Positions 1-1,421 of a stretch of DNA of 1,421 nucleotides are shown here, piece after piece; the stretch's first letter is position 1; each line of letters starts with the position of its first letter. This DNA comes from Naegleria gruberi. Lineage: Eukaryota. Under the pieces are notes generated by a model. The model ran no database searches, had not been told where the DNA came from, and worked only from the letters and a program-made list of their open reading frames with translations. The translations under genes and the position numbers were made by a program. Where the stretch lies: the NCBI GenBank assembly GCA_000004985.1, contig GG739426.1. One strand, 5' to 3'.

Positions 1-432
1 TCCAAGAGGCAATATGTTGAATTTGATGAAGAAGAAGTTCCTCAAGAGAATTCCAAATCTGGCATGGATATCTTGACCTACAAAACAAATCCAATCAACA
101 TTAATAACCATCATCCTCAAAGAAGAATGATCAATAGAATTACTCCTCAAACAGTATCTCAATTAAGACCAATCGAATCAAATGCCCCAACTATTACTAA
201 TCCACAAATTTATAATTCATTTGTTCGACCAAATAACTTTGTTACCACAGCTCCACCAGCTATTGCTCGACCAAATAACTTTCCTCAAACGCAACCTCAT
301 GAAGCCATGAATCTGCAAAATATTGGTATCAATTTGGTCACCAATCCAACTCCTACAGCTCCAAATCATACCGTTAACAGAGCCAGAGTTGTAGAAGCTT
401 TGAGAAAATTGATTGCCTCTATGAAGAAATAA
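1..432 (+). CDS. C-terminal 143 codons of a hypothetical protein, 5'-partial (continues upstream of the window). It has an acidic stretch EFDEEEVPQE, a long N/Q/P/T-rich low-complexity region and a basic amphipathic tail RARVVEALRKLIASMKK.
   Basis: Frame 1 has no stop from base 1 to TAA at 430-432, so the track ORF 64-432 is only the part downstream of an internal ATG. 143 stop-free codons are unlikely by chance in AT-rich DNA. Codon usage is yeast-like (Arg always AGA, Pro CCA/CCT, Leu TTG/TTA). An internal 16-nt direct repeat tcgaccaaataacttt at 225-240 and 267-282 encodes RPNNF twice. Function is unknown. Confidence 0.6.
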   Translation, partial: SKRQYVEFDEEEVPQENSKSGMDILTYKTNPININNHHPQRRMINRITPQTVSQLRPIESNAPTITNPQIYNSFVRPNNFVTTAPPAIARPNNFPQTQPHEAMNLQNIGINLVTNPTPTAPNHTVNRARVVEALRKLIASMKK

Positions 433-520
433 ACAATTAAGATTTGGTATATTTGAAAATTTAATGGCTCTGGGAATATTTAATAAAATTCACAATTTAT
501 GAACAATTAGGTTAGTAAAT
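433..520 (+). terminator. Putative 3' UTR and polyadenylation region of the upstream gene (yeast-type efficiency and positioning elements).
   Basis: It is AT-rich immediately after the TAA stop. A TATAT-like element ggtatattt lies at about 446-454 and AATAAA at 482-487, with further A/T-rich runs to about 520. This is a motif-level call only. Confidence 0.3.
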
Positions 521-579
521 TGTTTAGAAGTTTTCACTGGTTCACCACATCCATTACACATTCACTTGAATGGCTGTCG

Positions 580-586
580 TATAAAA
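580..586 (+). promoter_or_regulatory. Candidate TATA box (TATAAAA) for the downstream proline-rich protein gene.
   Basis: An exact TATAAAA lies at 580-586, about 200 bp upstream of ATG 786. That fits yeast spacing of TATA to TSS (40-120 bp) plus a leader. An A8 tract at 729-736 and a pyrimidine-rich leader at 751-784 (ccactcatcgcctcctcgtgtgtctttttt) precede the ATG. The start context is acaaATG, A-rich as usual in yeast. Confidence 0.3.
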
Positions 587-785
587 CCGCTATGTATCTC
601 TTCTAATAGTTTTCTTATTAATACGAACAATTGTAAATAAACAGGCCAATACAATACTCAAATTATGAATCTCGCCACTAATTTGTTTAACAGTAAAATT
701 TGAGTCATCACAGAAATTATTTATCTTTAAAAAAAAGAACAAAACAACACACCACTCATCGCCTCCTCGTGTGTCTTTTTTACAA

Positions 786-1421
786 ATGATTAAGGCTAGA
801 AGAAGTAATAACTTTTCGATTTTAATTGGAGTTGTATTGGCGTGCATGATTGCATTCTTGAGCGTGTATGCACATGCTGGTAAGGGTGCTTCTGCTCCAC
901 CTCCTCCATCACCAAGAGCTGCTGCTCCTCCACCACCACCAGTTTCTAGACCACCACCAGTTGCACAACCGGTTTCAAGACCACCTCCTCCACCACAACC
1001 TGTGGCAAGAGCTCCTCCTCCACCTCCAGTTTCAAGACCACCACCAGTTGCACAACCAGCTTCAAGACCAGCTTCTCCACAACCGGTTTCTAGACCAACA
1101 CCAGTTGCACAACCTGTATCAAAGCCTGCTGCCCAACCAGTTTCTAAACCAACCGTTCAACTAAAGCCAGCTTCAGTTGGCTCACCAATTGTTGTCAACA
1201 ATAAGAACCCTGCTAAATCTTTCCCAAAAGAAGGTGATAAAGATTTTGTAGGTCCTGTTCTTCCAAAGAAACAATCAGCAGCTGCCCTTAAACCAGTAGC
1301 ACAACCAACTGTTGAAAAGAAATCTGTTGCCAAGACTGACAAGAGTCAAGTCAAATCAGCAGCTGAAAAGAAGAAGGCCGATGTAACACCAAAAGAAATT
1401 GCTAAACCAACAAAGAAGCCA
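786..1421 (+). CDS. N-terminal 212 codons of a proline-rich tandem-repeat protein with an N-terminal signal anchor or signal peptide, 3'-partial (runs off the window end). Predicted type II membrane or secreted/cell-surface protein.
   Basis: ATG at 786 is followed by 212 sense codons with no stop through base 1421 (frame 0, 636 nt). This frame is not in the supplied ORF track. The translation begins MIKARRSNNFSILIGVVLACMIAFLSVYAHAGKGASAPPPPSPRAAAPPPPPVSRPPPVAQPVSRPPPPPQPVARAPPPPPVSRPPPVAQPASRPASPQPVSRPTPVAQPVSKPAAQPVSKPTVQLKPASVGSPIVVNNKNPAKSFPKEGDKDFVGPVLPKKQSAAALKPVAQPTVEKKSVAKTDKSQVKSAAEKKKADVTPKEIAKPTKKP. It has a positively charged n-region (KARR), a 20-residue hydrophobic core and an AHA-G site. 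Codon bias is strongly yeast-like (all Arg AGA, Pro CCA/CCT, Ala GCT, Ser TCT/TCA). Confidence 0.8.
   Translation, partial: MIKARRSNNFSILIGVVLACMIAFLSVYAHAGKGASAPPPPSPRAAAPPPPPVSRPPPVAQPVSRPPPPPQPVARAPPPPPVSRPPPVAQPASRPASPQPVSRPTPVAQPVSKPAAQPVSKPTVQLKPASVGSPIVVNNKNPAKSFPKEGDKDFVGPVLPKKQSAAALKPVAQPTVEKKSVAKTDKSQVKSAAEKKKADVTPKEIAKPTKKP
813..878 (+). other. Hydrophobic segment FSILIGVVLACMIAFLSVYA (residues 10-29) plus AHA (to residue 31). Either a type II signal anchor or a cleavable signal peptide with predicted cleavage AHA|GK after nt 878.
   Basis: There are 20 consecutive mostly aliphatic residues directly after the basic N-terminus MIKARRSNN (positive-inside rule puts the N-terminus in the cytosol). 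A small-x-small motif A-H-A lies at -3/-1 relative to G32. The core is long for a signal peptide, so anchor versus cleaved cannot be decided by eye. Confidence 0.55.
942..1163 (+). repeat. Eight tandem imperfect in-frame repeats of 24-30 nt encoding the decapeptide consensus (V/A)SRPPPVAQP, preceded by a degenerate proline-rich lead at 897-941 (PPPPSPRAAAPPPPP).
   Basis: Units: 942-971 gtttctagaccaccaccagttgcacaaccg (VSRPPPVAQP); 972-1001 (VSRPPPPPQP); 1002-1028 (VARAPPPPP); 1029-1058 gtttcaagaccaccaccagttgcacaacca (28/30 nt identical to unit 1); 1059-1085 (ASRPASPQP); 1086-1115 (VSRPTPVAQP, 27/30 identical to unit 1); 1116-1139 (VSKPAAQP); 1140-1163 (VSKPTVQL). Degeneracy increases 5' to 3'. 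Confidence 0.85.

What the first reader, a model, noticed from the sequence alone, without database searches (positions are those of the whole stretch)
897..1163. Tandem VSRPPPVAQP decapeptide array, a polyproline-II stalk or ligand module
Eight head-to-tail repeat units with near-identical DNA copies (units 1, 4 and 6 are 27-28/30 identical) show recent expansion or homogenisation, with decay toward the 3' side. Each unit has a fixed Arg/Lys two residues before a PPP/PxP core. If the domain is cytosolic, that matches class I/II SH3 ligand logic (R/KxxPxxP or PxxPxR) and proline-rich tracts recognised by WW, EVH1 and profilin. If extracellular, it would be an extensin- or mucin-like rigid stalk. 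Such minisatellite-like coding repeats are often copy-number polymorphic between strains.
Basis: partly seen in the sequence, partly recalled or inferred. Interest (0 to 1): 0.55.

Follow-up and report, generated by a model that had tools for sequence, protein, structure and literature searches.

The report
Proline-rich repeat spacer, Naegleria secretory protein
The repeat is real: eight roughly 10-residue proline-rich units lie just behind a secretion or membrane-anchor signal in a species-restricted amoeba (Naegleria gruberi) gene, so it is most likely an ordinary flexible spacer outside the cytoplasm and not a cytosolic SH3/WW docking site.

Summary
Nt 942-1169 encode eight head-to-tail units of 8-10 residues (VSRPPPVAQP type), preceded by a degenerate Pro/Ala lead-in at 897-941. 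Units 1, 4 and 6 are 27-28/30 identical. Periodicity at 10, 19 and 29 residues was reached by 1, 0 and 0 of 5000 composition-preserving shuffles.

The window is a whole 1421-bp Naegleria gruberi scaffold. The array lies in an ORF that starts at ATG 786 and runs off the window end. Its first 31 residues are a classical signal peptide or type II anchor: a KxRR n-region, a 19-residue hydrophobic core, then AHA|G. The array should therefore face the lumen or the outside, which argues against the SH3/WW/profilin reading. Only 1 of 8 units fits an SH3 consensus in any case.

It is not an extensin or a mucin by motif: there is no Ser-Pro3+, no Tyr, and 12% Ser+Thr. The only relative found anywhere is a second partial N. 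gruberi protein. It keeps the signal sequence and a KSFPKEGDxxFVGPVxPKKQ motif but has about 4 units, so copy number differs between paralogues.

Synonymous-codon identity between units does not exceed what codon bias predicts, so recent homogenisation is not supported. The rest of the protein lies off the scaffold, so function is inferred. My verdict is an ordinary, lineage-specific, basic proline-rich spacer of low interest.

The parts
786..1421 (+). 5' part (212 codons) of a protein-coding gene that runs off the end of the scaffold. It corresponds to N. gruberi XP_002668031.1/EFC35287.1, 'predicted protein, partial', whose deposited model starts 20 codons later at nt 846.
   Evidence: The ORF is open from ATG 786 to the window end. 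It is 100% identical to P0001. Residues 1-20 are conserved in paralogue P0002, which supports ATG 786 as the start.
786..878 (+). Signal peptide or type II signal-anchor (aa 1-31). The n-region MIKARRSNN is 786-812, the hydrophobic core FSILIGVVLACMIAFLSVY is 813-869, and AHA (small residues at -3 and -1) is 870-878.
   Evidence: This is the only hydrophobic segment in the 212 residues, with a 19-residue Kyte-Doolittle mean of 2.52 at aa 10-28. AF2 models a helix at 8-31 and coil elsewhere. Identity to P0002 over aa 1-37 is 30/36. No dedicated signal-peptide predictor was available.
897..941 (+). Pro/Ala-rich lead-in PPPPSPRAAAPPPPP, a degenerate unit related to unit 3 (VARAPPPPP).
   Evidence: It forms the first part of the 87-nt higher-order copy 897-983, which matches 984-1070 at 80%.
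942..1169 (+). Array of eight head-to-tail units of 8-10 codons (consensus VSRPPPVAQP). Unit starts are 942, 972, 1002, 1029, 1059, 1086, 1116 and 1140. Together with the lead-in (aa 38-128) the region is 43% Pro, has 10 basic and 0 acidic residues, and has no Cys or aromatic residues.
   Evidence: Searches give the units and their identities. One search gives the periodicity against shuffles. One search gives the composition and a pI of 12.0.
1170..1421 (+). Lys-rich tail with no predicted regular structure (19 K in 84 residues, pI 10.05). It contains a relic of the repeat core, KPVAQPTV, at 1290-1313.
   Evidence: Identity to P0002 over aa 164-212 is only 16/48.
1215..1274 (+). Conserved non-repeat motif KSFPKEGDKDFVGPVLPKKQ (aa 144-163), the best-conserved stretch outside the signal sequence.
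   Evidence: The invariant columns K144-D151, F154-V158 and P160-Q163 appear in the alignment with P0002. Identity over aa 129-163 is 20/28.
433..785 (.). AT-rich intergenic spacer (25-33% G+C), presumably the 3' UTR of the upstream gene plus the promoter and 5' UTR of the repeat gene.
   Evidence: Composition profile. There is no ORF of note and no inverted repeat. Rfam matches are all below the gathering scores.
1..432 (+). 3' part of the neighbouring gene, not part of the repeat feature. It corresponds to N. gruberi NAEGRDRAFT_54996 / XP_002668030.1. The frame is open from nt 1, and the deposited model starts at ATG 64.

Best explanation
The array is the N-terminal, membrane-proximal part of a secretory-pathway protein found only in Naegleria gruberi. 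An N-terminal signal peptide or type II signal-anchor directs the chain into the ER with its C-terminal side lumenal or extracellular. Directly behind it, about 90 residues of proline-rich, strongly basic, acid-free, Cys-free repeat cannot form helix or sheet. It most likely forms an extended, polyproline-II-like, semi-rigid spacer. That spacer would hold whatever lies further downstream (off this scaffold) away from the membrane, or would act as an exposed cationic surface or wall-associated thread. Its length is set by the number of repeat units, which changes by slippage or unequal exchange between units.

Shown here: the repeat, the reading frame, the signal-like N-terminus, the lack of predicted structure, the paralogue with half as many units, and the absence of relatives elsewhere. 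Inferred: the topology, the PPII conformation, the spacer role, and any hydroxylation or glycosylation.
For: - Real periodic coding repeat.
- The ORF starts at 786 with a KxRR n-region, a 19-residue hydrophobic core and AHA|G. This is the only hydrophobic segment and the only predicted helix, aa 8-31.
- There are more basic residues on the N-terminal flank (K3, R5, R6) than just after the core (K33). By the positive-inside rule (established knowledge) this puts the C-terminal side outside.
- The array is 43% Pro, with 10 K+R, 0 D+E, pI 12, and no Cys or aromatic residues. It is modelled as coil.
- Paralogue P0002 keeps the signal sequence (30/36), the core units VSRPPPVAQP-VSKPAA(A)QP-VSKP and the downstream motif (20/28). 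Its tail is only 16/48 identical. This uneven conservation speaks for constraint. It has about 4 units against 8.
- Non-homologous proteins pulled out by the repeat alone carry similar decapeptide or PVAQP arrays next to a TM segment (P0004), after extracellular PKD domains (P0005), or after a secreted CAP domain (P0006). The same kind of module is thus used as an extracytoplasmic linker elsewhere.
Against: - The protein is incomplete. Nothing downstream of residue 212 is known, so what the array would be spacing is unknown.
- No signal-peptide predictor, transcript evidence or proteomic evidence was available.
- Both copies sit on tiny unplaced scaffolds, and both gene models are automatic predictions.
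- No orthologue exists to test conservation of the periodicity.
- Without the DNA of P0002, dN/dS could not be computed.
- The 19-residue core cannot distinguish a cleaved signal from a membrane anchor.
Confidence: 0.55

Rival explanations
1. The array is the stem region of a type II Golgi or ER membrane enzyme. The layout would be a short basic cytoplasmic tail (MIKARRSNN), an uncleaved 19-residue anchor, then a proline-rich lumenal stem that ends in a catalytic domain encoded beyond the end of the scaffold.
For: A 19-residue hydrophobic core is long for a cleaved signal peptide and of transmembrane length. A short tail with KxRR followed by a structure-free stem is the standard layout of Golgi glycosyltransferases (established knowledge).
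Against: There is no catalytic domain within 180 residues after the anchor, where the tail is Lys-rich low complexity. AHA|G is a good signal-peptidase site. No homology to any enzyme family was found.
Confidence: 0.15
2. The array has no specific function. It is a neutrally expanding low-complexity tract in a young orphan gene, or in a mis-predicted or decaying gene copy on unplaced repeat-rich scaffolds.
For: The only relative is one other partial N. gruberi model on a 1085-bp contig. There are no Pfam hits. Unit number is not conserved between the copies. The tail diverges quickly (16/48).
Against: A 212-codon open frame in DNA of about 36% G+C is unlikely by chance. Conservation is strongly uneven between the paralogues: 83% in the signal, 71% in the motif segment and 33% in the tail. 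All indels keep the frame. Codon usage matches the neighbouring gene, with AGA, CCA and CAA preferred.
Confidence: 0.2
3. The array is a cytosolic docking tract for SH3, WW, EVH1 or profilin domains.
For: There are three PPPPP runs (aa 48, 66, 77) and one [RK]xxPxxP match at unit 3. Pro-rich tracts with flanking Arg are typical ligands (established knowledge).
Against: The N-terminal signal or anchor with a positively charged N-flank predicts a non-cytosolic location. Seven of eight units fit neither SH3 class, and there are no WW or EVH1 motifs. The paralogue has no P5 run and no SH3 match within its array, so these motifs are not the conserved element.
Confidence: 0.04
4. The protein is a secreted cationic proline-rich effector. 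Examples would be an antimicrobial or polyanion-binding polypeptide used by a bacterivorous amoeba, possibly processed into unit-sized peptides.
For: It has a signal sequence, a net charge of +10 over 91 acid-free residues, and R-P-P-P cores reminiscent of proline/arginine-rich antimicrobial peptides (the resemblance is from general knowledge only).
Against: Charge density is low, at one basic residue per 9-10. There are no dibasic or other recognisable processing sites between units, no aromatic residues, and no homology to any such peptide family.
Confidence: 0.04

Closest known systems
Plant and green-algal hydroxyproline-rich glycoproteins (extensins; Pfam Extensin_1 PF02095)
   Same: Both have a signal sequence followed by a tandemly repeated, basic, proline-rich rod-like region outside the cell. 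In both, repeat number varies between family members.
   Different: There is no Ser-Pro3-5 motif, no Tyr cross-linking motifs and no Pfam match. No homology was found. Hydroxylation and glycosylation are unknown in Naegleria.
Trypanosoma brucei procyclins (EP/GPEET repeat surface proteins)
   Same: Both are protist secretory proteins in which a short-period proline-containing tandem repeat is thought to form an extended rod projecting from the membrane. Both are lineage-specific, with variable repeat number (general knowledge).
   Different: Procyclin repeats are acidic (Glu-Pro) dipeptides or pentapeptides anchored by a C-terminal GPI. Here the units are basic decapeptides next to an N-terminal signal or anchor, and the C-terminus is unknown. 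There is no sequence similarity.
Stem regions of type II Golgi membrane proteins, and the extracellular Pro-rich segment of plant class I formins (PMC11194305 abstract)
   Same: Both have a hydrophobic N-terminal targeting segment followed directly by an unstructured proline-rich stretch on the extracytoplasmic side.
   Different: Those proteins carry defined catalytic or FH2 domains. None is seen in the 212 residues available.
Non-homologous repeat-bearing proteins found here: P0006 (CAP domain + PVAQP/PVAMP array), P0005 (PKD domains + PTAREQPMSK array), P0004 (TM + MTRGEPISQE array)
   Same: All carry arrays of similar period and composition, placed beside TM segments or extracellular domains.
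   Different: The matches are confined to the repeat (profile positions about 5-148, E 1e-10 to 4e-4). Neither the signal sequence nor the KSFPKEGD...FVGPV motif is shared. These are analogues, not relatives.

Membership tests
Coding tandem (minisatellite-like) repeat | Head-to-tail units with periodicity above what composition alone gives | tested here: met
   TRF reports periods 30 and 57 with scores 142 and 168. Lags 10, 19 and 29 give z = 3.9, 4.95 and 5.9, with 0 of 5000 shuffles reaching the maximum.
Coding tandem (minisatellite-like) repeat | Recent expansion or homogenisation, shown by excess identity at synonymous sites between units | tested here: not met
   Identical codons at aligned identical residues number 10/26, 15/27 and 16/28, against 14.1, 14.5 and 15.0 expected from codon bias. 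Units 1, 4 and 6 show only a small, non-significant excess (6/8, 6/7 and 5/7 against about 4).
Coding tandem (minisatellite-like) repeat | Copy-number variation between alleles or strains | not testable with these tools
   Only one assembly is available. Between paralogues the number differs, 8 against about 4.
Secretory signal peptide / type II signal-anchor | Positively charged n-region, uninterrupted hydrophobic core, and small residues at -3 and -1 | tested here: met
   K3, R5 and R6; a core at aa 10-28 with KD mean 2.52; A29-H30-A31|G32; helix at 8-31. This was judged by rule only, because no SignalP-type predictor was available. Cleaved versus anchored is undecided.
SH3 ligand (class I [RK]xxPxxP / class II PxxPx[RK]) | Consensus motif present in the repeat units | tested here: not met
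   One of eight units (unit 3, RAPPPPP) fits class I and none fits class II. The only class II match in the ORF is PVLPKK at aa 157, outside the array. No match is conserved in the paralogue's array.
SH3 ligand (class I [RK]xxPxxP / class II PxxPx[RK]) | Cytosolic exposure | tested here: inconclusive
   The predicted topology places the array outside the cytosol. No experiment supports this.
WW / EVH1 ligands | PPxY, PPLP, PPR or [FWYL]PPPP motifs | tested here: not met
   There are no matches in the window protein.
Extensin (HRGP) | Ser-Pro3-5 repeats, Tyr-containing cross-link motifs, and a match to Pfam Extensin_1 | tested here: not met
   No SP3+, no aromatic residue in the array, and no Pfam hit at E <= 1.
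Extensin (HRGP) | Prolyl hydroxylation and O-arabinosylation | not testable with these tools
   This needs biochemistry.
Mucin-like PTS domain | Ser/Thr-rich (typically more than 25%) Pro-containing repeats as O-glycan carriers | tested here: not met
   Ser+Thr is 11 of 91 residues, or 12%.

The most novel reading that the evidence does not exclude
The two N. gruberi copies may be fragments of a so far unrecognised heterolobosean family of basic, possibly hydroxyproline-modified, surface or cyst-wall thread proteins. These would have arisen independently of plant extensins and trypanosome procyclins. Their length would be tuned by gain and loss of one- or two-unit (10 or 19-20 residue) blocks. 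Such repeat-rich genes would be systematically broken in the short-read-era assembly, which would explain why both copies end at scaffold edges.
Probability: 0.1. Interest if true: 0.35.

Novelty: new member of a known kind. Interest (0 to 1): 0.15.

Why it matters
The stakes are modest. If the reading is right, it adds one lineage-specific example to the many secretory proteins that use proline-rich tandem repeats as extended spacers. It also corrects a public gene model: XP_002668031.1 starts 20 codons too late and so hides its signal sequence. The locus could serve as a length-polymorphic marker for N. gruberi strains. It would also be a starting point if anyone looks for surface or cyst-wall structural proteins in Naegleria, whose composition is poorly known. 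It does not open a long-standing question.

Tried and rejected
- **Pfam.** The repeat protein, the upstream protein and P0002 gave no significant family. The upstream protein gave only a sub-threshold DBR1_C hit (E 0.38, 11.6 bits against a cut-off of 26).
- **Word-indexed protein searches.** I ran three. The full ORF found only itself and P0002. A repeat-excised alignment found the same two. The upstream ORF found only its own model.
- **Exhaustive HMM search of 1.84 billion representatives with the two-sequence profile.** It returned the same two proteins plus three repeat-driven, non-homologous hits.
- **Attempts to recover longer DNA for the gene or its paralogue.** The look-up of encoding contigs had no record for P0001, P0002 or P0003. 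The viral and metagenome scans with conserved peptides were empty, as was a degenerate KSFPKEGD..FVGPV DNA pattern. The downstream part of the protein and the paralogue's DNA (needed for dN/dS) therefore stayed out of reach.
- **PDB sequence search of the upstream protein.** Nothing found.
- **Rfam.** Only sub-threshold chance hits.
- **Literature.** No paper mentions these accessions, and nothing specific exists on Naegleria proline-rich or hydroxyproline wall proteins.
- **Mapping P0002's four units onto specific window units.** Several solutions score almost equally (147, 147, 146). I therefore do not claim a particular two-unit block deletion.
- **Fold search.** Not run, because the model is a single helix plus coil.

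Full report
**What the window is.** The 1421 bases are an entire small scaffold of Naegleria gruberi. The repeat-bearing ORF is 100% identical to XP_002668031.1/EFC35287.1 ('predicted protein, partial', longest contig 1421 bp). The upstream ORF is identical to XP_002668030.1 / NAEGRDRAFT_54996. The organism is a heterolobosean amoeba. Table 1 of PMC9928731 appears to list its NEG-M assembly as 40.9 Mb, 35% G+C and 1,977 scaffolds. The excerpt did not show the column headers, so this attribution is my reading. The window's composition fits: 25-42% G+C outside the repeat and 48-57% inside it.

**Anatomy.** Frame 1 is open from nt 1 to the stop at 430-432, which is the 3' part of the neighbouring gene. 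An AT-rich spacer follows at 433-785. From ATG 786 a second ORF runs for 212 codons off the end of the window. It reads MIKARRSNNFSILIGVVLACMIAFLSVYAHA|GKGASA, then the Pro/Ala lead-in PPPPSPRAAAPPPPP (nt 897-941). Eight units follow:
- VSRPPPVAQP
- VSRPPPPPQP
- VARAPPPPP
- VSRPPPVAQP
- ASRPASPQP
- VSRPTPVAQP
- VSKPAAQP
- VSKPTVQLKP

These occupy nt 942-1169, with starts at 942, 972, 1002, 1029, 1059, 1086, 1116 and 1140. A Lys-rich tail follows.

**Checking the observation.** Units 1/4, 1/6 and 4/6 are 28/30, 28/30 and 27/30 identical, as claimed. TRF finds periods 30 and 57. The repeat finder finds an 87-nt pair, 897-983 and 984-1070, at 80%. In the protein, same-residue frequency at lags 10, 19 and 29 is 0.38, 0.44 and 0.50 against 0.23 expected (z = 3.9, 4.95, 5.9). 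None of 5000 composition-preserving shuffles reaches the observed maximum. The repeat is therefore real and not merely proline-rich composition. It also has a higher order: VSRPxPVAQP-type units alternate with xSRPxxPQP-type units.

Two details do not hold. First, the basic residue is adjacent to the first proline, not two residues before it. Second, the 'near-identical DNA copies' do not show recent homogenisation. At aligned positions with the same amino acid, the same codon is used 10/26, 15/27 and 16/28 times at lags 10, 19 and 29. Strong codon bias (CCA 34 of 49 Pro codons, AGA 9/9, CAA 10/10) predicts 14.1, 14.5 and 15.0. Units 1, 4 and 6 show only a small excess on 7-8 sites each.

**Topology.** The decisive context lies just upstream of the finding. 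Residues 1-31 have the three parts of a secretory signal: a basic n-region (K3, R5, R6), an uninterrupted 19-residue hydrophobic core (aa 10-28, Kyte-Doolittle mean 2.52, the only such segment in the 212 residues), and Ala at -3 and -1 before G32. AlphaFold2 on the two-sequence alignment models a single helix at 8-31 and no other regular structure (mean pLDDT 57).

A core this long is compatible with either a cleaved signal peptide or an uncleaved type II anchor. In both cases the positive-inside rule (established knowledge) puts the repeat in the ER lumen, and from there at the cell surface, in a secretory compartment or outside the cell. The deposited model for this gene starts at Met21 and so hides half of this signal. 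Paralogue P0002 starts MIKPRRSNFSLLIGVVLVC..., which matches residues 1-20 and supports ATG 786.

**Relatives.** I ran two word-indexed searches, one with the full ORF and one with a repeat-excised alignment, and one exhaustive HMM search of 1.84 billion representative proteins. They found only the protein itself and one other N. gruberi partial protein, P0002 = XP_002667955.1, on a 1085-bp contig. The three further hits (E 1e-10 to 4e-4) match only through their own decapeptide or PVAQP arrays and carry unrelated domains. P0005 has PKD domains, P0006 a CAP domain, and P0004 a TM segment followed by MTRGEPISQE repeats. They are analogues, not homologues. They do show the same kind of module being used beside membranes and between extracellular domains. 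Viral and metagenome collections hold no relative. No Pfam family matches. The gene is thus restricted to N. gruberi as far as these databases can show.

**What the paralogue tells us.** Conservation is uneven:
- Signal region: 30/36.
- Aligned part of the array: 36/50.
- Segment with the motif KSFPKEGDxxFVGPVxPKKQ: 20/28.
- Distal tail: 16/48.

All length differences keep the frame. This pattern argues for a real, constrained protein and against junk. P0002's array is PPRAAAPS-VARAQPPPQP-VSRPPPVAQP-VSKPAAAQP-VSKP, a lead-in plus about four units against eight here. Which window units are 'extra' cannot be settled, because several mappings score almost equally.

**Testing the interpretations.** For the SH3/WW/EVH1/profilin branch, only unit 3 (RAPPPPP) fits [RK]xxPxxP. 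No unit fits PxxPx[RK]. There is no PPxY, PPLP or [FWYL]PPPP. The three P5 runs are absent from the paralogue. Together with the predicted topology this makes the cytosolic ligand reading unlikely.

The extracellular branch holds up in general, but the named families are not met. There is no Ser-Pro3+ extensin motif, no Tyr or other aromatic residue in the array, and no Extensin_1 match. Ser+Thr is only 12%, far from a mucin PTS domain. What characterises the array is 43% Pro, ten basic and no acidic residues (pI 12), no Cys, and a regular basic residue every 8-10 positions.

**Most likely mechanism.** The array is an extracytoplasmic, membrane-proximal, extended and semi-rigid cationic spacer, probably rich in polyproline-II conformation. 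Its length is set by unit number. The conformation and the spacer role are inferred from composition and position.

The main alternatives are these:
- A stem region of a type II Golgi or ER enzyme whose catalytic domain lies off the scaffold.
- Neutral low complexity in a young or decaying orphan gene.
- A cytosolic ligand.
- A secreted cationic proline-rich effector.

The missing downstream sequence is the chief limitation. Neither the paralogue's DNA nor any longer contig could be retrieved.

**Verdict.** The feature is an ordinary kind of thing, a proline-rich tandem-repeat spacer in a lineage-specific secretory protein. It is a new member of a known kind and of low general interest.

Noticed in passing
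window 786-845 (against the deposited model start at 846): The public model XP_002668031.1 begins at Met21 (MIAFLSVY...). The upstream in-frame ATG at 786 adds 20 residues, MIKARRSNNFSILIGVVLAC, which are conserved in paralogue XP_002667955.1. The deposited model therefore truncates the signal sequence, and standard predictors run on it could miss the signal.
   Followed up: yes
window 1-432 (+): The upstream gene's frame is open from nt 1, so it too may be cut by the scaffold end. The deposited model NAEGRDRAFT_54996 starts at ATG 64. It has no homologue in 5.8 billion proteins and nothing in the PDB. It gives a sub-threshold, near full-length match to the DBR1 C-terminal domain (E 0.38, 11.6 bits against a cut-off of 26, profile positions 16-125 of 138). 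This is not significant but could hint at a divergent lariat-debranching enzyme tail.
   Followed up: partly
window 221-240 and 263-282: A 20-nt direct repeat (95% identical, 42 nt apart) lies inside the upstream ORF and encodes [V/A]RPNNF twice. It is a small internal duplication in a Pro/Asn/Thr-rich low-complexity tail.
   Followed up: no
window 897-1127: The array has a higher-order structure. The 19- and 29-residue periods are stronger than the 10-residue one, and two unit types alternate (VSRPxPVAQP and xSRPxxPQP). There is an 87-nt pair (897-983 and 984-1070, 80%) and a 57-nt TRF period.
   Followed up: yes
window 1290-1313: A relic of the repeat core, K-PVAQP-TV, recurs about 120 nt downstream of the array inside the Lys-rich tail. 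This suggests the array once extended further, or that the tail derives from decayed units.
   Followed up: no
window 1380-1388: The deposited model ends at ...KKKAD (codon 1380-1382), directly before GTAACA. The annotator presumably called a splice donor at 1383. The paralogue's model reads through the equivalent 'DV', so the intron call is uncertain.
   Followed up: no
window 868-1164 (+), alternative frame: A 98-codon ORF lies in another frame across the repeat and encodes a His/Leu/Gln-rich product. It is a by-product of the repeat's lack of stop codons and has no support from homology.
   Followed up: partly
window 327-402 (-): There is an Rfam match to the CLRN1-AS1 lncRNA conserved region (25.3 bits against a gathering score of 48, E 0.0006). 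It is a vertebrate family, the match is below threshold and it lies inside a coding region, so I take it as chance.
   Followed up: no
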